IMG/VR virus record: IMGVR_UViG_3300046665_000434
Coordinates: 64,001 to 128,000 of that record
Reading direction: 5' to 3' (one strand)
DNA: 64,000 nucleotides
From: a virus
Below, piece by piece: positions 1,543 through 8,328 of this stretch. Position numbers and translations under genes: made by a program. Position 1 is the first letter of the stretch, and the number at the start of each line of letters is the position of its first letter. The notes under the pieces are model-generated. The model did no database searches, had not been told where the DNA came from, and saw only the letters and a list, made by a program, of their open reading frames with translations.

Positions 1543-2057
1543 ACAAACTCTACATCTTAGGTGAGGACCACAACAGCCTTAAAGAGATAGCTCGTATCAA
1601 CGAACGTATAAAGGCTATCAAGCCTGACTACCTGTTGCACGAGCTGCTCTACACGGATCTGTGTCTGACTCGCGAAGAGATCAAACAACGGCTCGACGCT
1701 TGCTCAGAAGGCGGTATCTGTGATCCTCGCCTCAATAAGGATATCTACGAGTTGGGGTATGCTGAAAACATTCCACTTGTCGGTATCGATCTGGATCTGT
1801 CTGGTAGTGCGCGTATGACGCTGCGTAAGCAGTTTGAACTGCGCGAGAAGCAGATGGTGAAGATGATCGAACAGTACCGCACCAAGGGTACGGTAGTCGT
1901 CGTGGTAGGGGATGCTCATCTGAGGACACAATCCACAACCGAGTTAGGTCAGTCATCACCTATCCCGAGGATCTTTGCGGCCACGGCCACTATTGAACGT
2001 AGCCTTACTGCGAAGTATTCGGCAGAGGCGTCAATCCCATCCTGGCTTAAATGGTGA
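1539..2057 (+). CDS. TraB/ChaN/EreA-superfamily-like protein, possibly virion-packaged
   Basis: LGEDH ... HE ... GIDL ... REKQM ... VVVVVGDAH motif pattern; C-terminal SAE...W tail. Confidence 0.5.
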   Translation: MNKLYILGEDHNSLKEIARINERIKAIKPDYLLHELLYTDLCLTREEIKQRLDACSEGGICDPRLNKDIYELGYAENIPLVGIDLDLSGSARMTLRKQFELREKQMVKMIEQYRTKGTVVVVVGDAHLRTQSTTELGQSSPIPRIFAATATIERSLTAKYSAEASIPSWLKW

Positions 2058-2061
2058 GACT

Positions 2062-2433
2062 ATGAACGAGTTCTCGTACAATAGCTTCAATACGTTCCTG
2101 AAGTTTCCAGACCCTACCCCGGAAGAAGTCCGGAAGATGTGCGTCAAAGTCCTCGATGAAGTGATGACGAAAGTCTCCGACTATCTGGCGACAACGATGG
2201 TGCTTCCGAACAAGTCCCGTGTTATGGCACAGCAGAACAAACGCAAACTCGCCAATTATTACCGAGCTCTGCTGAACCATGATGTCGAGAAACAGTTCGA
2301 CATCTATTTCCCGTTCGTAGGTAAAGGTCCTCACTGGCGAGTCTTTTGGACAGCTGACAAATCCACCATCTATATCTCTGGTGTTTATCACGATCACCAG
2401 AAGACGTATGCGGTGGAAGCGGTTGAAATGTAA
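2062..2433 (+). CDS. hypothetical protein
   Basis: ATG 2062 after GGTGA, follows upstream stop. Confidence 0.65.
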   Translation: MNEFSYNSFNTFLKFPDPTPEEVRKMCVKVLDEVMTKVSDYLATTMVLPNKSRVMAQQNKRKLANYYRALLNHDVEKQFDIYFPFVGKGPHWRVFWTADKSTIYISGVYHDHQKTYAVEAVEM

Positions 2434-2550
2434 AAAGTTACGGAAGGTGATAAGGTTATGTAAAACACCGACTGCCGCACTCATGCAGCCAGGTTGGTGA
2501 ATTACGAGGGATACCCGGCAATCCCAGCGCTCTGCGCTAAATCCGGCTTC

Positions 2551-2627
2551 GCAGTATTAGCTCAGTTGGTTAGAGCGCAGCACTGTCACTGCTGAGGTCA
2601 CCGGTTCGAGTCCGGTATATTGCGCCA
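2551..2627 (+). tRNA. tRNA-Asp(GTC)
   Basis: full cloverleaf; CAGCA-ctGTCac-TGCTG; G73-CCA. Confidence 0.95.
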
Positions 2628-2634
2628 CTTTCAT

Positions 2635-2710
2635 TCCAAGGTAGCTCAGTCGGTAGAGCAGCACGCTGTTAACGTGTTGGTCCCTGGTTCGAATCCAGGT
2701 CTTGGAGCCA
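2635..2710 (+). tRNA. tRNA-Asn(GTT)
   Basis: cloverleaf; ctGTTaa loop; GCCA end. Confidence 0.95.
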
Positions 2711-2716
2711 CACAAA

Positions 2717-2792
2717 GGGTTAGTAGCTCAATTGGCAGAGCACCGGTCTCCAAAACCGGTTGTTGCAAGTTCGAGTCTTGCTTAGCCCGCCA
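2717..2792 (+). tRNA. tRNA-Trp(CCA)
   Basis: cloverleaf; CCGGT-ctCCAaa-ACCGG; GCCA end. Confidence 0.95.
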
Positions 2793-2798
2793 TGTTTT

Positions 2799-2885
2799 GG
2801 ATGATGTAGAGACAGATGGCTACTGTCAGCGGACTGTAACCCCGCCGCTTCATGCTAGAGGTTCAATTCCTTCCTTCATCCACCA
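2799..2885 (+). tRNA. tRNA-Tyr(GTA), somewhat divergent
   Basis: ctGTAac loop, variable arm, TTCAATT T-loop, ACCA end; some stem mismatches. Confidence 0.8.
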
Positions 2886-2892
2886 CTTTAAT

Positions 2893-3016
2893 AGTCTTGT
2901 AGCTCACTGGTAGAGCGCGTCCTTTCGGTTCGACTCCGAACATGCCTCGGCTTCGGCCAACGGCGTGATCTGGATACACGGACGAGGTAGCAGGTTCGAT
3001 TCCTGCCTAGACTTCC
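2893..3016 (+). tRNA. interrupted tRNA-Val(TAC)-like gene with 50-nt insert (2925-2974) after U33
   Basis: acceptor AGTCTTG/CTAGACT, canonical D and T arms, anticodon stem CGTCC/GGACG; TT + TACAC rebuilds a 7-nt loop. Confidence 0.75.
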
Positions 3017-3023
3017 TAGCAAT

Positions 3024-3191
3024 AACTCTGTAGCTCAGTTTGGATAGAGCGTCCTCATTTTTCCCCTAGGGGGATTGCAGGTTCAAGTCCTGTCCATTGC
3101 AAGTCCCCTAGGGGAGCCTTGGCTTTGGTGGCGGAATTGGTAGACGCGAACACGAGGAAGGTCACGGGTTCGATTCCCGTCATGAGTTACC
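3024..3191 (+). tRNA. interrupted tRNA-Val(AAC)-like gene with 90-nt insert (3059-3148) that is a permuted Leu-type tRNA
   Basis: acceptor AACTCTG/CA(T)GAGTT, stem TCCTC/GAGGA; AT + AACAC rebuilds the loop. Confidence 0.75.
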
Positions 3192-3198
3192 TGTTAAT

Positions 3199-3295
3199 GA
3201 TCCCCACTCCACTAAATCCCTCAAGGCGTTCTCTTAGGAGTTGCTGAGCGATGGTGGTGCGAGTAATAGCAAGTTAAAACCTTGTGGGGGTCACC
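3199..3295 (+). ncRNA. tRNA-framed RNA (acceptor stem + long rod + T-like arm)
   Basis: GATCCCC/GGGGGTC-A-CC; GCAAG-TTAAAAC-CTTGT; long imperfect hairpin between. Confidence 0.55.
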
Positions 3296-3303
3296 TTTTC
3301 AAT

Positions 3304-3380
3304 TGGGGTATAGCCAAGTTTGGTTACGGCAACGGGCTTTGATCCCGTCATCGCTGGTTCGAATCCAGCTGCCCCTTCCA
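3304..3380 (+). tRNA. tRNA-Gln(TTG)
   Basis: ACGGG-ctTTGat-CCCGT; T arm GCTGG-TTCGAAT-CCAGC; CCA end. Confidence 0.9.
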
Positions 3381-3385
3381 TTTAC

Positions 3386-3465
3386 GATCCTTTGCGACAC
3401 GGTTGCGGTGCCGATCCTGCGATAGTGAAGCATTAGTCCCGGCACTCGACGCCGGGAGGATCACC
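3386..3465 (+). ncRNA. degenerate tRNA-like RNA
   Basis: GATCCTT/GAGGATC-A-CC; CCGGC-ACTCGAC-GCCGG T-like arm. Confidence 0.5.
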
Positions 3466-3475
3466 CTTTCGTTAT

Positions 3476-3564
3476 ACTAGGTTCCTGCCTCGGGCAGGCC
3501 AGCTGTAGGTGACTGCGCGCAACTCCACCTCGGCTGTATGGATAATCGCCATGACCTGGTCACC
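3476..3564 (+). ncRNA. cloverleaf-shaped tRNA-like RNA with long central arm
   Basis: ACTAGGT/ACCTGGT; CCTGCC/GGCAGG; CAGCTG-AGGTG/CACCT-CGGCTG; TATGG-7nt-CCATG. Confidence 0.5.
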
Positions 3565-3570
3565 CTTTAT

Positions 3571-3658
3571 AGTCCTCTAGCTCAGTTGGTTCAGAGCGTC
3601 CCCCTATCTTGCTAACGACATGGGGAAGGTCGTAAGTTCGAATCTTACGAGGACTTCC
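3571..3658 (+). tRNA. interrupted tRNA-Val(GAC)-like gene with 11-nt insert (3606-3616)
   Basis: perfect acceptor AGTCCTC/GAGGACT, stem TCCCC/GGGGA; CT + GACAT rebuilds the loop. Confidence 0.8.
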
Positions 3659-3665
3659 TATTTAT

Positions 3666-3809
3666 AACTCTATAGCTCAATTGGTAGAGCGCCATCATCT
3701 TTAGGTTGCGGGTTCGATTCCCGCATGATCCGCATGGATCATTAGCTCAATTGGCAGAGCAGAAGATCACGCGATGGAGGTTGCAGGTTCGAGACCTGCT
3801 AGAGTTTCC
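3666..3809 (+). tRNA. interrupted tRNA-Val(CAC)-like gene; 69-nt insert (3699-3767) is a complete circularly permuted anticodon-less tRNA
   Basis: outer acceptor AACTCTA/TAGAGTT, stem CCATC/GATGG; inner T arm, acceptor ATGATCC/GGATCAT and D arm; AT + CACGC rebuilds the loop. Confidence 0.85.
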
Positions 3810-3811
3810 TA

Positions 3812-3929
3812 ATGCTAGACCCACCGGGAAGCGGGTAAAACGCCGAGGGGTTGAAATTGGCGTGATGGCCTAGAGGCTCATGTTGGCCCGAATGAGAGTG
3901 AGCGCATTGAAATAATCGGGCCCCCGCAT
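3812..3929 (+). ncRNA. candidate structured RNA
   Basis: non-coding; stems ACGCCGA/TTGGCGT and GGCCCGA/TCGGGCC; possible pseudoknot. Confidence 0.35.
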
Positions 3930-3962
3930 CAACTACTACTACTAGACTAGATGGTGATGCTA

Positions 3963-4493
3963 ATGTTCATGTTGAAAATTATGTCCGGTGAAGACCGGCC
4001 AGATTCTGATGTCTCGAAGTCGTTCAAGGGCGTTATCCTTGGCGATGGGATGTCGTTCGAGTTCTCCCGTAAGGTAACGACTGAAACGGCTCTGCTGACA
4101 TTGACGAGCCCAGATGGCTCTCACGTCACTATGGACCTCGCCGGTAACGCTTACATCGTAAGTAACACCGGTAAGACCGTGGCGTCATTCGCTTACAGTA
4201 ACACCAAGCTCGTTGACGCTGAGGTAGCTAACAGGCCTACGTTCAGCGAGCACGAAGATCGTCGACAGCGAGCAGCTGCGAAGCCGCTCAACTCTGTCTC
4301 AGTGAGTGCTGAAGCGGAAGCACTTACCAGTGCCCGCATCCTCTGGTTGAGATTACACGAACCTAAACGCCTTGACCGGTTGCGTGTATGTCGAAGAGCG
4401 GACGGCAGTCTCGTAGTAAATGATCAGGTCGACACGGTCCGACAATTGGATCAGTGGGGTGTCCCAAACACCTACGGCGAACTACTGAATTAA
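3963..4493 (+). CDS. hypothetical protein; C-terminal domain paralogous to 8371..8685
   Basis: WLRLHEP..RRADGSLVVN vs WLELNDP..RRDDGSLVIN. Confidence 0.7.
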   Translation: MFMLKIMSGEDRPDSDVSKSFKGVILGDGMSFEFSRKVTTETALLTLTSPDGSHVTMDLAGNAYIVSNTGKTVASFAYSNTKLVDAEVANRPTFSEHEDRRQRAAAKPLNSVSVSAEAEALTSARILWLRLHEPKRLDRLRVCRRADGSLVVNDQVDTVRQLDQWGVPNTYGELLN

Positions 4494-4502
4494 AGAGATT
4501 TG

Positions 4503-4664
4503 GCTCCAAGCGGAATCGGGGGATTTCTAACTTGGGGCGTTGTCAGAACAGACGTTGGGCGCGGTTGCTTGAAAGATAGCGTGCTAGCCCATCGAGTTAT
4601 GCTTCCTCCGGCGGCGTTCTGATAACTAAGTGACGGGCTTCAATCCTAAGCAAGCCGGGGACCA
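4503..4664 (+). ncRNA. candidate multi-hairpin RNA
   Basis: GCTCCAAG/CTTGGGGC; GTTGTCAGAAC/GTTCTGATAAC; ends in ACCA. Confidence 0.4.
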
Positions 4665-4685
4665 AATTCTATTGGAGATAACAAC

Positions 4686-5024
4686 ATGGCGTTGGTAAAA
4701 GTACGGGTTGCGGTGACTCGCGAAAGTCTGCTGGGTCGTCTTCTGCAACTCGATCCAGAGATGGATCTCACTGACAGTATCAAGGCGGTTGAAGTTGAGG
4801 CGGTTATCGATGAAGCTGGCGTGAATCATCCCGATTGGGAATTCAACATCAGCACCATTGCTCCGTTCATCACCGGCGTTGGTACTGTCGCAGGCCATGG
4901 CAAGATCAGCTTTACAGTAAACATGCAAGATGGCGCCCTCACCATTGAGTCTACAGAGGCTGCTAAAGACCTGCTGCTGGTTCTCAAGGTTACGACCGAG
5001 AATCATAACCACCGTCCGGTCTGA
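4686..5024 (+). CDS. hypothetical protein
   Basis: GGAG SD, 112 aa. Confidence 0.7.
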   Translation: MALVKVRVAVTRESLLGRLLQLDPEMDLTDSIKAVEVEAVIDEAGVNHPDWEFNISTIAPFITGVGTVAGHGKISFTVNMQDGALTIESTEAAKDLLLVLKVTTENHNHRPV

Positions 5025-5036
5025 CAAGTTTTTTTT

Positions 5037-5111
5037 AGTATCGTAGCTCAGAGGTAGAGCGCGGCCCCGATAAGGCTGAGGTCCGTGGTTCGAAACCACG
5101 CGGTACTACCA
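5037..5111 (+). tRNA. tRNA-Ile(GAT)
   Basis: CGGCC-ccGATaa-GGCTG; ACCA end; C33 is unusual. Confidence 0.88.
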
Positions 5112-5334
5112 TGTGTGCTGATGCGCCGATGTCTTCGACTAGCAGCCTTTGAGCGGGTAGGTCGTGAGCATTGGCGCATTGGCGCCTCTTTTCCCCTCCG
5201 CAGGGGGAGACTTGAGACTATAGGGTATCTTGGTATCACGCCTGAGAATGTGTGCTGGCATATCCTGAAACCTCTGCTGGGAGGTGTCTTTCGTATGTAG
5301 GGGTACTCAGCTCCGGCATCCCGCGACTAATTTC

Positions 5335-6042
5335 GGATAGATAGGGAAGTGGCCAAACCCATCGGATTGACTTATTCTATGTATTTAAACATGGGATACG
5401 TCAATGAACTGCATCCACTGTCAGCGAGAATGTGTTAATTGGAATTCTCGGCGTGCACACGAGTGTCGTTGTCCGATGAATCCCAATCGGAAAGTCTTTA
5501 GCCCCAATCTAGGCAACCGACATTCTGAAGCTACTAAGGAGAGATGTAGGGCTGCCGCTCAACAGCAACATCGGCAAGGTTTAAGTGCCGGTTTCCCTAA
5601 CTGGGAAGGTAGAACTCATCGAGAAGAAAGTAAGTTAAGAATATCCCAAGCGCTGATGGGTAACAGGAATGGTAACCATCGAGGGGATCGACAGTCCTAC
5701 TATCGCGGGATCAGAATGGATTCTAGATGGGAGGTTCGTACTGCCGAGTGGTTAGATGACATGGGTTGTTATTGGAGATATTCTCCGAGGGGATTCCAGC
5801 TATCCGACGGGCGACACTACTATCCTGATTTCTTTGTCTATGATGATGAAGGTTGTTTAGATTACCTGATCGAAGTTAAAGGTTATTTTAGAGAAGGTAA
5901 TCGTTTGAAATTCGAAACGTTTAAACGAGAATATCCTGAAATAGAAATACGGTTGTGGGAGAAACCTCAACTTAAAGAATTGGGTATCCTTTAGAGTCCG
6001 GTCTCTATGAGTACGTCGGTTCGAATCCGACTCTGTCCTCCA
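5335..6042 (+). tRNA. type II tRNA (Leu TAG-like) interrupted after U33 by a 623-nt endonuclease-encoding insert (5369-5991)
   Basis: 5' half GGATAGA..GGG-AAGTGGCCAAA-CCC-A-TCGGA-TT; 3' half TAGAG-TCCGG, variable arm, GTCGG-TTCGAAT-CCGAC-TCTGTCC-T-CCA. Confidence 0.8.
5404..5994 (+). mobile_element. putative homing endonuclease (Zn finger + NUMOD3 repeats + PD-(D/E)XK nuclease) inside a tRNA anticodon loop
   Basis: CxxC..HxxxC; HSEATKER and HREESKLRIS NUMOD3-like motifs; SRWE..YYPDF..IEVKG. Confidence 0.8.
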
Positions 6043-6060
6043 ATTGATGGAAAGGTAACC

Positions 6061-6489
6061 ATGTCCACTACGCCTCATGTTCGAGTTGGTGTCGCAGTCC
6101 TTATTCGGAGGGCTAACGGTAAGCTTCTCGTTGGTCGTCGTCAAGGAAGTCATGGCGCTGGTACTTGGACTGTCCCTGGTGGACATCTGGAGTTCGGTGA
6201 ATCGATCGAAGACTGTGCTCGACGTGAAGTGGCTGAAGAGACTGGCCTTACTCTGCTGAGCGTATCGGTAGGTTTTGCCGTAACCAATGATATCTTCACC
6301 GAAGTCAACAAGCACTACATCACCGTCTGGGTGGAAGCTACCGTCGGTGAGATTGACGAAGCCGAAAACCTAGAGCCTGAGAAGTGCGATGGTTGGGAAT
6401 GGTATCATGGACCAGAGGTTCCCACACCTCGATTCCTAGGTCTCCAGAACTTGATAGATCAACGTCCAGCCTACTGGAGTTATACTTGA
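6061..6489 (+). CDS. Nudix hydrolase (MutT/NUDT15-like)
   Basis: Nudix box GGHLEFGESIEDCARREVAEETGL; EPEKCDGWEW; ATG 6007 lies inside the tRNA, so 6061 is preferred. Confidence 0.9.
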   Translation: MSTTPHVRVGVAVLIRRANGKLLVGRRQGSHGAGTWTVPGGHLEFGESIEDCARREVAEETGLTLLSVSVGFAVTNDIFTEVNKHYITVWVEATVGEIDEAENLEPEKCDGWEWYHGPEVPTPRFLGLQNLIDQRPAYWSYT

Positions 6490-6498
6490 TACCATATT

Positions 6499-6627
6499 TC
6501 CATGATAGCTACTCGGAAAGGCGCCGTCAATGGGTTCGACTCCCGTTACCCTTAGGGGTATGTTGCCACCCGTACGGGTGGCTTGGCATAGACGGAGATT
6601 GTAGGTTCGACCCCTGCTCATGGAACC
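6499..6627 (+). ncRNA. tRNA-like RNA with a 62-nt structured anticodon-loop region
   Basis: TCCATGA/TCATGGA-A-CC; CCGTC/GACGG; a second T arm inside the loop. Confidence 0.7.
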
Positions 6628-6669
6628 TAATCTTCAGCACAGTAGCCTATTCACGTTAGGAGTATTTTC

Positions 6670-6819
6670 ATGAGTATCGAAAACGAAAAGATCGTAACCG
6701 AACGGAAAGCTTCCGGGCCAAATCTCTCGATGCCGAAATGGAAACCCAGTCAGAAGCTCGCTGATGAGATCGGCGATGAACTTGCGGAACTGATGGCGAA
6801 AGAAGCCTCGGCCAAGTAA
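6670..6819 (+). CDS. small hypothetical protein (49 aa)
   Basis: AGGAG SD; MSIENEKIV...KEASAK; below ORF-track cutoff. Confidence 0.6.
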   Translation: MSIENEKIVTERKASGPNLSMPKWKPSQKLADEIGDELAELMAKEASAK

Positions 6820-6834
6820 GCACAACTCTTTAAT

Positions 6835-6938
6835 CCCTGGTCGACCATGCGGGGTTGGGCCTATACCCACGATACGATACGATCTAGCTACACGTCCGTC
6901 GTGGTTATTTGTCGGGAGTTCGATCCTCTCACTCGGGG
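6835..6938 (+). ncRNA. degenerate tRNA-like element
   Basis: GGGAG-TTCGATC-CTCTC T arm; CCACGA/TCGTGG long arm; weak acceptor stem. Confidence 0.35.
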
Positions 6939-6955
6939 CTGTATTTGGAGTCGCT

Positions 6956-7159
6956 ATGCTTGACAACGTTGAAGAAAATGTTGAGTACAGGTCTCCATCA
7001 GGGATCAGGTTCAAGGTAACCAGTATAGCGAGACATGCTCAGGATTGTTCCTGGCCCATGATCGTATACACTAATCTCGAACCTACCAAAGACGCACCTA
7101 CCGGTACAGTCTGGGTTATCGCTGAGTCGATATTTCTGAGAACGTTTTCGCGGATATAG
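6956..7159 (+). CDS. DUF1653-like protein
   Basis: V..IARHAQD....IVY..L....VWV...F motif. Confidence 0.6.
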   Translation: MLDNVEENVEYRSPSGIRFKVTSIARHAQDCSWPMIVYTNLEPTKDAPTGTVWVIAESIFLRTFSRI

Positions 7160-7223
7160 TTTAATGGTAGAGCCTCAGCCTTCCAAGCTGTTGACCCGAG
7201 TTCGATTCTCGGTATCCGCTCCA
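7150..7223 (+). tRNA. tRNA-Gly(TCC)
   Basis: GCGGATA/TATCCGC; ctTCCaa loop; TCCA end; overlaps upstream stop codon. Confidence 0.93.
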
Positions 7224-7232
7224 ACACAGGTC

Positions 7233-7277
7233 GCCACCTACCCTTCGGGTAGGTGGCTATACCTTCTTCTTTTTTTT
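7233..7277 (+). terminator. terminator of tRNA cluster
   Basis: GCCACCTACCC-TTC-GGGTAGGTGGC and long T run. Confidence 0.8.
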
Positions 7278-7345
7278 GTTAACGTAAGTTGCGTTTATTA
7301 TGTAGATAAATTCTTCAATACAGTTTAGCAGTAAGAGAGGTACTG

Positions 7346-7627
7346 ATGTCCTCAACCGTTCACGAACTTAATGATAACGTGTTCAGAAAGTATCTGATCT
7401 ACGCAGTCGTCGAAGACAGTGATTGTCGGCCACTTCAGCTACAGCTCCACCTGATGATGGAGCACGTCTATACCCGTAAGGGCTTGCATCCTGACGTTCA
7501 GAAAGAGGAGTTCGAGAAGTCTCTCTTTTCGTGGGCGCGTAATAACCGGTTGTTCCCTGCCCGCATTACGCCGACAGTAGAACGGTTCTTGAAAGCTAAT
7601 AAATCTAACGGGAGGATTGCAGCATGA
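7346..7627 (+). CDS. hypothetical protein
   Basis: GAGG SD. Confidence 0.65.
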   Translation: MSSTVHELNDNVFRKYLIYAVVEDSDCRPLQLQLHLMMEHVYTRKGLHPDVQKEEFEKSLFSWARNNRLFPARITPTVERFLKANKSNGRIAA

Positions 7628-8328
7628 CTCAAGAATACGCAAGCACCAAGATCGTCACCGCCTGGCACGCACAAGCGCCTAACTCTGGCGGTAAAGGTGA
7701 AGACGGCTATAGCGTCAAGTACAAGAATGGCTACGTCAGCTGGTCACCGACCGCTGCATTTGAAGAGAGTAGCGTCGCTCTCGGTAACATCAGCCACTTC
7801 CCTCCATTCCTGCAACGCCTGATTGCAGAACACGCCATCTTGAGTGACAAACTCACTAAGCTCCAGGACTTCATCGATTCGTCTGATTTCCAGATACACA
7901 TCGACGATCCTGATGAGCGTGCGCGCTTGAATCTGCAAGAGTCCCTGATGGCCCGGTATGCCGAAGTGCTGGCTGTCCGTATCGCCGTCCACAAAGAGAA
8001 AGTCGTTAATGCACCGCCTGCGACCATCACTCCAGTCATCGTGAGGTACGCCGGTAAAGGCCCGCATGAACTCCAGGAGCAAACCGTCGCTTTGGGCGAC
8101 ATGCCTGAATCGTTTGATCTCGAGAAAGTCAGCGAGGCTGTTGCAGCAAAGGTTGGCGATGTCGTATATCAGGAAGACGTCTATGAACTCGACGGCCAAG
8201 GTAGTCCTGTCGTGAACGTAGGCCATGATGGACAGCAGGTGTTTGTGATCAAGCACCACAAAGGCACGCCCGTTATCCAGGAACCGATGAAGTTTGGCGA
8301 TGAGTTCAACTTCAACAAAAACGACTGA
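7624..8328 (+). CDS. multidomain phage protein (GYxVxYxxGYxSWSP domain + crAss001_48-like helical domain)
   Basis: TKIVTA..GYSVKYKNGYVSWSPTAAFEE; RLIAEH..L..KL..L..FI...Q..LM..Y..VL..RI. Confidence 0.6.
   Translation: MTQEYASTKIVTAWHAQAPNSGGKGEDGYSVKYKNGYVSWSPTAAFEESSVALGNISHFPPFLQRLIAEHAILSDKLTKLQDFIDSSDFQIHIDDPDERARLNLQESLMARYAEVLAVRIAVHKEKVVNAPPATITPVIVRYAGKGPHELQEQTVALGDMPESFDLEKVSEAVAAKVGDVVYQEDVYELDGQGSPVVNVGHDGQQVFVIKHHKGTPVIQEPMKFGDEFNFNKND

What the first reader, a model, noticed from the sequence alone, without database searches (positions are those of the whole stretch)
3024..3191. Second twin: Val(AAC)-like tRNA carrying a permuted Leu-type tRNA
Seen in sequence: insert order is variable arm TCCCC-TAG-GGGGA (3062-3074), T arm GCAGG-TTCAAGT-CCTGT, acceptor 3' strand CCATTGC-A, a linker hairpin repeating TCCCCTAGGGGA, acceptor 5' strand GCTTTGG (two mismatches) and D arm TGGCGGAATTGGTAGACGCG. 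Established: that D-arm sequence and a long variable arm are typical of bacterial tRNA-Leu. Inference: the twin architecture arose independently from a different donor tRNA than at 3666, suggesting a recurrent mechanism or selection.
Basis: partly seen in the sequence, partly recalled or inferred. Interest (0 to 1): 0.78.

Follow-up and report, generated by a model that had tools for sequence, protein, structure and literature searches.

The report
Two-headed tRNA look-alike in phage
A giant uncultured phage carries, among its tRNA genes, a conserved 169-base RNA gene. A leucine-tRNA body without an anticodon arm is grafted into the anticodon loop of a valine-type tRNA frame. It is most likely a non-decoding tRNA mimic, not two usable tRNAs.

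Summary
Observation confirmed. Window 3024-3192 lies in the tRNA array of a phiKZ-like jumbo phage (an IMG/VR record). It is a class-I tRNA frame whose anticodon loop holds a 90-nt module. The module runs hairpin, T arm, acceptor 3' strand plus A, hairpin linker, acceptor 5' strand, D arm.

- **Leu origin:** the D-arm stretch is 22/22 identical to E. coli tRNA-Leu genes. Re-permuted, the module scores 31.8 bits on a Leu profile; the next isotype scores 17.8 and 500 shuffles reach at most 7.7.
- **Conservation:** orthologues in three other phage lineages keep the two-bodied fold, with compensating changes in 5 of 7 inner-acceptor pairs. It is therefore a selected RNA.
- **Not a tRNA:** the inner body has no anticodon arm.
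- **The "Val" label:** it rests only on an A-C doublet, kept in 21 of 22 family members. U33 and purine-37 are not kept in relatives, and every member ends N-CCT, not CCA.
- **Not found:** no ribozyme or bulge-helix-bulge (BHB) motif in the element; no splicing endonuclease, RNA ligase or Ro60 gene in the phage record.

Best reading: an unspliced two-headed tRNA mimic, with a YrlA-like module in a valine-type frame.

Caveat: two palindromes unique to this copy are predicted to refold the insert.

This scan has flagged similar two-headed RNAs in other jumbo phages. I found no paper describing them.

The parts
3024..3030 (+). outer acceptor stem, 5' strand (A1; U at -1)
   Evidence: Identical in all orthologues. 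Pairs with 3181-3188.
3033..3050 (+). outer D arm (4-bp stem, GG in loop)
3052..3056 (+). shared helix, 5' strand (outer anticodon stem 27-31)
   Evidence: Pairs with 3154-3158. Invariant among the four orthologues; it covaries only when the 3666-type paralogues are included.
3057..3061 (+). 5' junction nucleotides (ATTTT); the first two stand for positions 32-33
   Evidence: The two nucleotides vary across the family: AT, GT, AC, CC, TT.
3062..3074 (+). inner variable-arm hairpin; first copy of the CCCCTAGGGG palindrome
   Evidence: L005 has a 4-bp GAAA-capped hairpin here; L001/L002 have none.
3077..3093 (+). inner T arm (loop TTCAAGT)
   Evidence: 16/17 identical to the orthologues, which differ only at A/G in the loop and C/T at the stem's last base.
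3094..3101 (+). inner acceptor stem 3' strand plus discriminator A
   Evidence: Against the orthologues, 5 of 7 pairs are changed on both sides and still pair (read).
3102..3121 (+). linker closing the inner acceptor stem, with the second palindrome hairpin (3104-3115)
   Evidence: The orthologues have a 7-nt loop here.
3122..3128 (+). inner acceptor stem 5' strand (two U.U mismatches)
3131..3147 (+). inner D arm, Leu type (3-bp stem, 11-nt loop)
   Evidence: 22/22 identity of 3127-3148 to E. coli tRNA-Leu genes. Invariant in the orthologues.
3149..3153 (+). 3' junction AACAC; A-C at the places of anticodon positions 35-36
   Evidence: NAC holds at this offset in 21 of 22 family members. The first letter varies among orthologues.
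3154..3158 (+). shared helix, 3' strand (outer anticodon stem 39-43)
3159..3180 (+). outer variable region (AGGTC) and T arm
   Evidence: The T stem shows compensating changes.
3181..3192 (+). outer acceptor 3' strand (one bulged T), discriminator A3189, CCT tail
   Evidence: All 22 family members end N-CCT, while the ordinary tRNAs of the array end CCA.

Best explanation
Window 3024-3192 is one RNA gene of a small paralogous family found in a clade of uncultured phiKZ-like jumbo phages. Each member is a class-I tRNA frame with an extra module grafted between loop positions 33 and 34. Here the module is the acceptor/T/D/variable core of a tRNA-Leu in circularly permuted order, without an anticodon arm. 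The RNA folds as two L-shaped tRNA bodies joined through one shared 5-bp helix. That helix is the anticodon stem of the outer frame and, read from its other end, also stands where the inner body's anticodon stem would be. I infer that it is transcribed with the tRNA array and cut out by the tRNA-processing enzymes: RNase P at A3024, then 3' trimming to N-CC followed by A addition. I further infer that it stays unspliced and does not decode. It would act as a tRNA mimic that occupies a tRNA-binding protein. The invariant A-C doublet sits two bases from the stem's 3' strand. This points to a partner that reads valine-type anticodon nucleotides, either ValRS or a host anticodon-directed nuclease. 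Shown here: the anatomy, the Leu origin of the inner body, conservation with covariation, and the absence of a ribozyme or BHB motif in the element and of known splicing or ligase genes in the record. Inferred only: expression, processing, absence of splicing, and the partner.
For: - Anatomy and Leu origin.
- Orthologues: L001:193-337, L002:5730-5874 (same as L003 and L004) and L005:7525-7674 (same as L008 and L017).
- Covariance model: the model built on them scores 173-176 bits for the orthologues, 143.9 for the window copy and 83-103 for the 3666-type twins, while ordinary tRNAs stay at or below about 55.
- Independent fold prediction: RNAalifold on the unfitted MAFFT alignment predicts the twin helices. 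The MFE and centroid of L005 are exactly the twin fold.
- Pair counts over both twin types: 98.4% of cells paired and 18 pairs with double changes, against 30-46% paired in slid controls.
- Conservation pattern: the inner D arm is invariant, while the inner acceptor helix is rewritten at 5 of 7 pairs and still pairs.
- Against decoding and splicing: the inner body has no anticodon arm. Position 33 is C in 9 of 22 members and position 37 is a pyrimidine in 8 of 22, while A35-C36 hold in 21 of 22. The letter at 34 changes between orthologues. All members end N-CCT.
- No splicing machinery: no Rfam intron or ribozyme hit. No splicing endonuclease, RtcB, Rnl1 or Rnl2 in the record.
- Precedent: the sister twin's insert matches the tRNA-like module of YrlA at 41.8 bits, and YrlA is a proven non-decoding tRNA mimic (PMC4201824).
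Against: - No expression or end-mapping data exist.
- In this phage all four Val-like members do have U33 and purine-37, and together they show all four NAC triplets. That is what an intron reading predicts.
- Removing the insert from the L001 and L005 orthologues gives sequences that ARAGORN calls tRNA-Val(AAC).
- The window copy is the weakest of its group: a bulge in the outer acceptor, two U.U in the inner acceptor, and a predicted equilibrium fold that pairs the two palindromes instead of forming the inner T arm and acceptor.
- The record is only 62% complete by CheckV, so missing enzymes prove little.
- No partner protein has been identified.
- Only four distinct orthologue sequences exist for this element.
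Confidence: 0.55

Rival explanations
1. Interrupted tRNA-Val(AAC) gene. The 90-nt insert is an intron removed by proteins after U33, giving a working tRNA-Val. The excised Leu-like module is released, perhaps circularised, as a second product.
For: The rule 'first 2 plus last 5 loop nucleotides' restores a canonical 7-nt loop in all four Val-like genes of this phage, with U33, purine-37 and all four NAC triplets. The orthologues with the insert removed are called tRNA-Val(AAC) by ARAGORN. A CCA-ending Leu(TAG)-like gene at 5335-6042 is interrupted at the same loop position by a nuclease ORF. The array holds no uninterrupted tRNA-Val.
Against: The insert is far too short for a group I or II ribozyme, and Rfam reports no intron or ribozyme match. 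No bulge-helix-bulge motif can be drawn at the junctions by inspection. No splicing endonuclease, RtcB, Rnl1 or Rnl2 is in the record. In related phages the would-be mature loops have C33 and pyrimidine-37. All members lack CCA. The insert's own tRNA-like fold is conserved by compensating changes, which a discarded intron would not need. The spliced outer of this copy is not recognised as a tRNA. A34 tRNA-Val is not a bacterial type (own knowledge).
Confidence: 0.1
2. Two-piece RNA. RNase P cuts 5' of G3122 in the open inner acceptor stem and the linker is trimmed back to A3101, where CCA is added. Two chimeric half-molecules would then stay paired as a complex with two free acceptor ends, one of Val type and one of Leu type.
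For: The inner stem has G1-C72, A73 and a 7-position acceptor stacked on a T arm. It is closed by a dispensable 20-nt linker where the orthologues have 7 nt. M. smegmatis YrlA, with a 7-bp acceptor-like stem, is cut by RNase P and receives CCA in vivo (PMC4201824). E. coli LeuRS does not read the anticodon (own knowledge).
Against: Two central U.U mismatches weaken the RNase P substrate helix. The linker hairpin would hinder 3' trimming. The orthologues have C1-G72 with G after the stem, not Leu-like ends. Nothing has been tested.
Confidence: 0.15
3. This particular copy is a decaying relic of a once functional twin, or a recombination scar between tRNA genes, with no function of its own.
For: It has the lowest model score of its orthologue group (143.9 against 173-176 bits). 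It has an outer acceptor bulge, two U.U mismatches and two palindrome insertions absent from the relatives. The predicted equilibrium fold is not the twin. ARAGORN and the Rfam tRNA model do not call it.
Against: Five of seven inner-acceptor pairs changed on both sides and still pair. The D arm and both T loops are intact and invariant. The outer acceptor re-pairs 7/7 by using the extra C that all orthologues carry. The junction AAC and the A-CCT tail are kept.
Confidence: 0.1
4. In this phage the insert works through the alternative fold. The two CCCCTAGGGG copies pair into a 12-bp helix, making a long hairpin or a two-state switch in place of a second tRNA body.
For: The MFE of -63.9 against -49.3 kcal/mol for the twin; the duplex has pair probability about 1.0. 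The palindrome occurs only at these two sites in 154 kb.
Against: No orthologue has the palindromes, so the conserved fold is the twin. Each palindrome can form its own local hairpin as it is transcribed, one of them where L005 also has a hairpin. Energy models ignore tRNA tertiary contacts.
Confidence: 0.1

Closest known systems
YrlA, the tRNA-like Y RNA of bacteria and mycobacteriophages (Rfam RF02553; Chen et al. 2014, PMC4201824)
   Same: It has a non-decoding module with T arm, closed acceptor-like stem and D arm in this permuted order, and conserved tertiary-contact nucleotides. Likely YrlA genes were also reported in phage species. M. smegmatis YrlA can be cut by RNase P and receive CCA. 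The sister twin's insert matches model positions 23-88 at 41.8 bits.
   Different: The Ro60-binding helix formed by the RNA ends is replaced by a whole tRNA frame. Rfam gives no YrlA match within this element at E up to 1; the only overlapping hit (2986-3050, 24.1 bits) spans the junction with the preceding gene. No Ro60/TROVE gene is in the record. The element keeps a valine-type A-C doublet and an N-CCT tail.
Intron-containing tRNA genes (archaeal/eukaryotic bulge-helix-bulge introns; bacterial group I introns in tRNA anticodon loops)
   Same: An insert sits in the anticodon loop of an otherwise cloverleaf gene. Deleting it restores a 7-nt loop.
   Different: The site is 33/34, not 37/38 or after the wobble base. 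The element has no BHB motif and no ribozyme, and the record has no endonuclease or ligase gene. The loop rules are broken in relatives. The insert's fold is itself under selection.
Circularly permuted tRNA genes of Cyanidioschyzon merolae and permuted two-piece tmRNA genes (own knowledge)
   Same: The 3' half (T arm, acceptor 3' strand) is encoded ahead of the 5' half (acceptor 5' strand, D arm), with a linker between them.
   Different: Those genes encode a complete functional RNA after processing. Here the permuted body has no anticodon arm and is embedded in another tRNA frame.
Valine-accepting tRNA-like structure of tymoviruses (own knowledge)
   Same: A tRNA mimic that does not decode yet keeps the anticodon-loop A and C that ValRS reads.
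   Different: It is the 3' end of an RNA virus genome with a pseudoknotted acceptor stem and a normal loop. Valylation of the phage RNA is untested.
Engineered tRNA scaffolds for RNA expression (Ponchon and Dardel 2007, own knowledge)
   Same: A foreign RNA module is grafted in place of the anticodon loop, so that the chimera is processed and stabilised like a tRNA.
   Different: That design is man-made. Here the family is natural, with modules that range from 11 nt to a whole second tRNA body.

Membership tests
YrlA (RF02553) | tRNA-like module: T arm, closed acceptor-like stem, D arm in permuted order | tested here: met
   The sister element 3700-3767 aligns to model positions 23-88.
YrlA (RF02553) | Ro60-binding helix formed by the 5' and 3' ends (GNCGAA-type motif); score above the Rfam gathering cut-off of 69 bits | tested here: not met
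   No YrlA match lies within 3024-3192 at E up to 1. The only overlapping hit (2986-3050, 24.1 bits) joins the preceding gene's T arm to this gene's D arm. The best in the array is 41.8 bits and lacks model positions 1-22 and 89-114. The ends form a tRNA acceptor stem instead.
YrlA (RF02553) | encoded next to a Ro60/Rsr (TROVE) gene | tested here: not met
   No TROVE match in the 154-kb record, which is 62% complete.
Functional tRNA-Leu (inner body) | Leu-type D arm, A73, class-II variable arm, T arm, 7-bp acceptor | tested here: met
   The acceptor has 2 U.U mismatches.
Functional tRNA-Leu (inner body) | anticodon arm with a Leu anticodon; free 5' and 3'-CCA ends | tested here: not met
   The D arm is followed by G plus AACAC and the outer stem. 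There is no anticodon arm and no CCA. ARAGORN finds nothing unless a donor arm is added.
Functional tRNA-Val (outer frame) | 7-nt anticodon loop with U33, NAC, purine-37; encoded or addable CCA; recognised by tRNA finders | tested here: not met
   The loop is 97 nt. After in-silico removal of 90 nt, ARAGORN still calls nothing, and isotype profiles rank Val sixth at 24.9 bits. The tail is CCT. Relatives have C33 and pyrimidine-37.
Functional tRNA-Val (outer frame) | ValRS identity nucleotides A35, C36 and A73 (own knowledge of E. coli tRNA-Val identity) | tested here: met
   A3150, C3151 and A3189. A-C is invariant in 21 of 22 family members. Charging itself is not testable here.
Protein-spliced tRNA intron (BHB type) | bulge-helix-bulge motif at the exon-intron junctions; intron at 37/38; splicing endonuclease and ligase available | tested here: not met
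   The junction strands ATTTT and G-AACAC do not form a 3-4-3 motif (inspection). The site is 33/34. No tRNA_int_endo, RtcB, Rnl1 or Rnl2 was found. Host enzymes were not examined.
Group I intron in tRNA | ribozyme core of about 200 nt or more, matched by Rfam intron models | tested here: not met
   The insert is 90 nt. No intron family matched at E up to 1 in 2000-8000.

The most novel reading that the evidence does not exclude
The family is a set of split valine tRNA genes that a jumbo phage or its host splices with proteins at position 33/34, the site where PrrC-type anticodon nucleases cut. This would yield working tRNA-Val isoacceptors plus released tRNA-shaped by-products. That would be the first protein-only tRNA splicing pathway in the bacterial or phage world.
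Probability: 0.08. Interest if true: 0.95.

Novelty: new variant of a known kind. Interest (0 to 1): 0.62.

Why it matters
Phage tRNA genes are usually read as codon supplements or as replacements for tRNAs destroyed by host defences. A conserved family of tRNA frames carrying a second tRNA body, or other modules, where the anticodon should be would add a new class to that list. These would be phage RNAs built from tRNA parts but meant for binding, not decoding. The family shows which parts are kept: two elbows, acceptor stems, an A-C doublet and an N-CC end. That gives direct handles for finding the partner, be it ValRS, LeuRS, RNase P, the CCA enzyme or an anticodon nuclease. Standard tRNA finders either miss these genes or report arbitrary 'introns' and anticodons for them. 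Phage tRNA censuses are therefore affected.

Tried and rejected
1. blastn of the element and of the array against 50,697 phage records found only ordinary tRNA similarity and no orthologue.
2. Relatives sought through neighbouring or conserved proteins gave nothing. The 180-aa ORF at 3951-4493 and the nvRNAP subunit had no relative in viral contigs. The 180-aa ORF matched only itself among 5.8 billion proteins.
3. The single metagenome scan returned only the contig already held as L002.
4. The pattern from the mini-elbow member found one more short contig (L040, holding only the 2893-type member) and one false positive (L041, an ordinary tRNA).
5. Model R1 run over four cultured Pseudomonas phages (DT01, Psa21, RVTF4, ZY21) found only 76-78-nt tRNAs.
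6. Ro60, RtcB, Rnl1, Rnl2 and the tRNA splicing endonuclease were not found in the record. The CCA-adding enzyme was not found in it or in four related contigs. The Rnl1 control rang nowhere, so that search says nothing. All these records are fragments.
7. ARAGORN in intron mode calls most family members, but with inconsistent intron sites and anticodons (Arg, Thr, Cys, Gly, Leu, Lys), so I gave its labels no weight.
8. MAFFT and the covariance model both align this copy's inner acceptor 3' strand to the second palindrome instead of 3094-3100.
9. Reading the element as two tandem tRNAs without anticodon arms fails. The outer 5' strand pairs at only 1 of 7 positions with the inner 3' strand (read).
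10. No sigma-70-type promoter or intrinsic terminator lies in or next to the element, and only two 42-aa chance ORFs overlap it.
11. Six literature searches found no description of two-bodied phage tRNA mimics.

Full report
**Setting.** The window is part of a 154-kb IMG/VR virus record, 62% complete by CheckV. Its non-virion RNA polymerase subunit is about 35% identical to that of phiKZ-like Pseudomonas jumbo phages. DnaB-type and other helicases and phiKZ-type virion proteins fit this assignment. A tRNA array runs from 2551 to 7223. ARAGORN and Rfam call Asp, Asn, Trp, Gln, Ile and Gly, all ending in CCA. Between them lie tRNA-like genes with oversized anticodon loops at 2893-3017, 3024-3192 (the finding), 3571-3659, 3666-3810 and 6499-6628. 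A Leu(TAG)-like gene at 5335-6042 is split by a 196-aa ORF with a NUMOD3 motif and weak PD-(D/E)XK-type nuclease matches.

The outer frame has acceptor, D arm, a 5-bp anticodon stem (3052-3056 with 3154-3158), T arm, discriminator A3189 and CCT. The 97-nt 'loop' has seven parts:
- two nucleotides, followed by three Ts;
- a 5-bp hairpin (3062-3074);
- a T arm (3077-3093);
- a 7-nt acceptor 3' strand plus A (3094-3101);
- a 20-nt linker with a second hairpin of the same palindrome;
- the acceptor 5' strand (3122-3128, two U.U mismatches);
- a D arm (3131-3147), G, and AACAC.

The outer acceptor pairs 7/7 only if T3183 is bulged. The element ends at 3192.

**Not chance, and of Leu origin.**
- Window 3127-3148 is 22/22 identical to annotated tRNA-Leu genes in all 5426 complete E. 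coli genomes.
It gives Leu 31.8 bits, His 17.8 and the rest at most 11. The best isotype score of 500 shuffles never exceeds 7.7. In its genomic order the insert scores only 15.7.
- The Leu profile leans towards this D arm, because many loci were fetched with that motif. One search is the unbiased check.
- ARAGORN accepts the re-permuted insert as a class-II cloverleaf when the 17-nt anticodon arm of a real phage tRNA-Leu is lent to it (0 of 300 shuffled controls accepted). It finds nothing without that arm.
- So the insert is the body of a tRNA-Leu without an anticodon arm. Joining its two ends would put the D arm directly against the variable hairpin.

**The outer frame is Val only by its triplet.** With the 90-nt insert removed by the '2 plus 5' rule, the outer frame scores as a generic class-I tRNA: Arg 33.7, Ile 27.0, Pro 26.3, Met 25.9, Gly 25.0, Val 24.9. 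ARAGORN does not call it.

**Relatives.** Similarity searches against cultured phages and searches through neighbouring proteins found nothing. A pattern joining the Leu D arm to a nearby T loop found orthologous arrays in IMG/VR contigs:
- L001:193-337;
- L002:5730-5874, identical in L003 and in the metagenome contig L004;
- L005:7525-7674, identical in L008 and L017.

All have the same outer acceptor 5' strand, the same shared helix, an identical inner D arm, A as discriminator and CCT. They differ where a structured RNA is expected to differ:
- The inner acceptor helix is a perfect 7 bp of entirely different sequence closed by a 7-nt loop. Against the window copy, 5 of 7 pairs are changed on both sides and still pair.
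- The variable position holds a 4-bp GAAA-capped hairpin in L005 and no hairpin in L001/L002.
- The outer T stem shows compensating changes.

**The fold.** RNAalifold on the plain MAFFT alignment predicts all twin helices. The MFE and centroid structure of L005 are exactly the twin fold. A covariance model built on the four sequences scores 173-176 bits on the orthologues, 143.9 on the window copy and 83-103 on the 3666-type twins of all four lineages. Other inserted members and ordinary tRNAs score about 55 or less. On the model-fitted alignment of both twin types:
- 98.4% of cells pair;
- 18 of 35 pairs show double changes;
- slid controls pair at 30-46%.

That alignment leans towards the model, and it places this copy's inner 3' strand on the second palindrome. 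Thermodynamic z-scores of single sequences are weak, -0.9 to -2.2, as usual for tRNAs. The comparative evidence carries the case.

**A peculiarity of this copy.** CCCCTAGGGG occurs only twice in the 154 kb, at 3063 and 3105. No orthologue has it. The two copies can form two local hairpins (twin model, -49.3 kcal/mol) or pair with each other in a 12-bp helix that dissolves the inner T arm and acceptor (MFE -63.9, pair probability about 1.0). Which fold forms in the cell cannot be decided here. Local hairpins form first during transcription, and the energy model ignores tRNA tertiary contacts.

**The family.** I tabulated 22 members from the four lineages.
- **Inserts:** they range from 11 nt through plain hairpins and a 'mini-elbow' (T arm plus closed stem) to whole permuted tRNA bodies.
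- **The A-C doublet:** in 21 of 22 members the five nucleotides before the stem's 3' strand read N-A-C-N-N.
- **Position 34:** the first letter changes between orthologues, for example CAC, CAC, AAC, AAC in the 3666 group and AAC, GAC, TAC in another.
- **Position 33:** it is C in 9 of 22 members.
- **Position 37:** it is a pyrimidine in 8 of 22 members.
- **3' ends:** discriminators are A, C or U, and every member ends N-CCT followed by A. The canonical tRNAs end CCA.

A35 and C36 are the main anticodon determinants for ValRS, and A73 contributes (own knowledge of E. coli tRNA-Val identity). The family therefore keeps what a valine-specific reader would need, but not what a ribosome needs.

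**Spliced or not.**
*For splicing:*
- In this phage all four Val-like members have U33 and purine-37 and show the four NAC triplets once each.
- The orthologues with the insert removed are called tRNA-Val(AAC).
- The array has no intact tRNA-Val.
- A nuclease ORF splits the Leu(TAG)-like gene at the same loop position.

*Against splicing:*
- There is no room for a ribozyme and no Rfam intron hit.
- No BHB motif can be drawn at the junctions.
- No splicing endonuclease, RtcB or Rnl2 was found. The Rnl1 search also found nothing, but its control rang nowhere, so it carries no weight. The records are fragments in any case.
- Relatives have non-canonical would-be loops.
- The CCT ends are uniform.
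- Above all, the insert's own tRNA-like fold is conserved through compensating changes, which a discarded intron would not require.

I put the unspliced mimic at 0.55 and splicing at 0.1.

**How it most likely works (inferred).** The RNA is released from the array transcript by RNase P; U stands at -1 in the members I looked at. 3' trimming then stops at CC, and the host CCA enzyme would add A. The RNA folds into two L-shaped bodies on one shared helix. The N-A-C-N-N strand stacks on the helix's 3' strand much as nucleotides 34-38 do in a normal anticodon loop. Grafting the module at the 33/34 turn leaves that stack free. The RNA would then occupy a protein that reads valine-type anticodon nucleotides together with a tRNA body. 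Candidates are ValRS and a host anticodon-directed nuclease, which would meet a substrate look-alike whose cleavage region is rebuilt. Anti-phage tRNases and phage tRNA countermeasures are well documented (PMC10264068, PMC13056530). None specific for tRNA-Val is known to me.

A sub-variant is cleavage by RNase P in the open inner acceptor stem, as shown for M. smegmatis YrlA (PMC4201824). That would give a two-piece complex with a second, Leu-type acceptor end.

**Comparison with what is known.** The closest described RNA is YrlA. It has the same permuted T arm, closed stem and D arm module and the same tRNA mimicry. The sister twin's insert matches the YrlA model at 41.8 bits. Membership fails on three defining points: no Ro60-binding helix, no score near the cut-off, and no Ro60 gene. 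The element works like the YrlA tRNA module but is not a Y RNA. It is also not a permuted tRNA gene in the Cyanidioschyzon sense, because it has no anticodon arm, and not a known kind of tRNA intron.

**Novelty.** Six literature searches found no description of such two-bodied phage RNAs. Earlier notes of this scan report similar two-headed tRNA-like RNAs in other jumbo phages. I did not check those. They make the design recurrent within the scan and are not independent evidence.

The two twins of this phage have inner bodies of different classes. One is Leu type without its own stem. The other is class I, scoring best on Lys at 31.4 bits, with its own 5-bp stem. Each has its own orthologue group in the related phages. 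Different donors and long-term retention are supported. A specific 'mechanism' of origin is not shown. A segment spanning the junction of two tandem tRNA-Leu genes, inserted into a Val-type gene, would give this gene order; that is only a suggestion.

**Verdict.** This is a real and conserved RNA gene, and a new variant of the tRNA-mimic kind. This copy is the most irregular of its group. Function and processing remain open and are directly testable.

Noticed in passing
window 5335-6042: A Leu(TAG)-like class-II tRNA gene that ends in CCA is interrupted two nucleotides into its anticodon loop by about 620 nt. Nearly all of the insert is a 196-aa ORF (5404-5994) with a NUMOD3 motif and weak DUF1064 / phage endonuclease I matches. 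Its stop codon TAG is the would-be anticodon. No group I intron hit appears in Rfam, and no uninterrupted copy exists in the related contigs.
   Followed up: partly
window 2893-3017, 3571-3659, 3666-3810; L001, L002, L005 arrays: Sister members of the same family carry a 50-nt mini-elbow, an 11-nt insert and a 69-nt class-I permuted tRNA body. Each has an orthologue in the related phages. The 11-nt insert keeps its length and the motif TAAC-GAC in this phage and in L001/L002; L005 has AAAGAC.
   Followed up: partly
window 6499-6628: A further tRNA-like gene ending A-CCT has a T arm and two hairpins in its loop, but a degenerate D arm and no N-A-C before the stem. It is the only one of 22 family members without the doublet.
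   Followed up: no
window 2799-2881: A Tyr(GTA)-like class-II tRNA ending in CCA has an aberrant D arm. ARAGORN and the Rfam tRNA model both miss it; the only hit is tRNA-Sec at 23.5 bits, E 0.31. The related array in L002 has a regular tRNA-Tyr.
   Followed up: no
window 3063-3072 and 3105-3114: The 10-nt palindrome CCCCTAGGGG occurs only at these two sites in the 154-kb record. Both lie inside the finding, and both are absent from the orthologues.
   Followed up: yes
L018:114-151, L022 (- strand, 5327-5364), L038:4942-4979 and other loci: Unrelated IMG/VR contigs carry Leu-type 5' halves with the same D arm, followed after only 10-26 nt by a T arm. In L018, L022 and L038 a T-arm-like hairpin seems to stand in place of the anticodon loop, followed by a second T arm. 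These may be other designs of anticodon-less tRNA mimic.
   Followed up: no
window 3281-3289, 3461-3469, 3560-3568: A short motif TCACCYTTT recurs in the spacers of the array, twice just upstream of a tRNA 5' end. It could be a processing or promoter signal of the phage.
   Followed up: no
window 3024-3192; L001, L002, L005: ARAGORN in intron mode gives arbitrary intron sites and anticodons for these genes (Arg, Thr, Cys, Gly, Leu, Lys, Ser). Automatic annotation of such phages will therefore list tRNAs that do not exist.
   Followed up: yes
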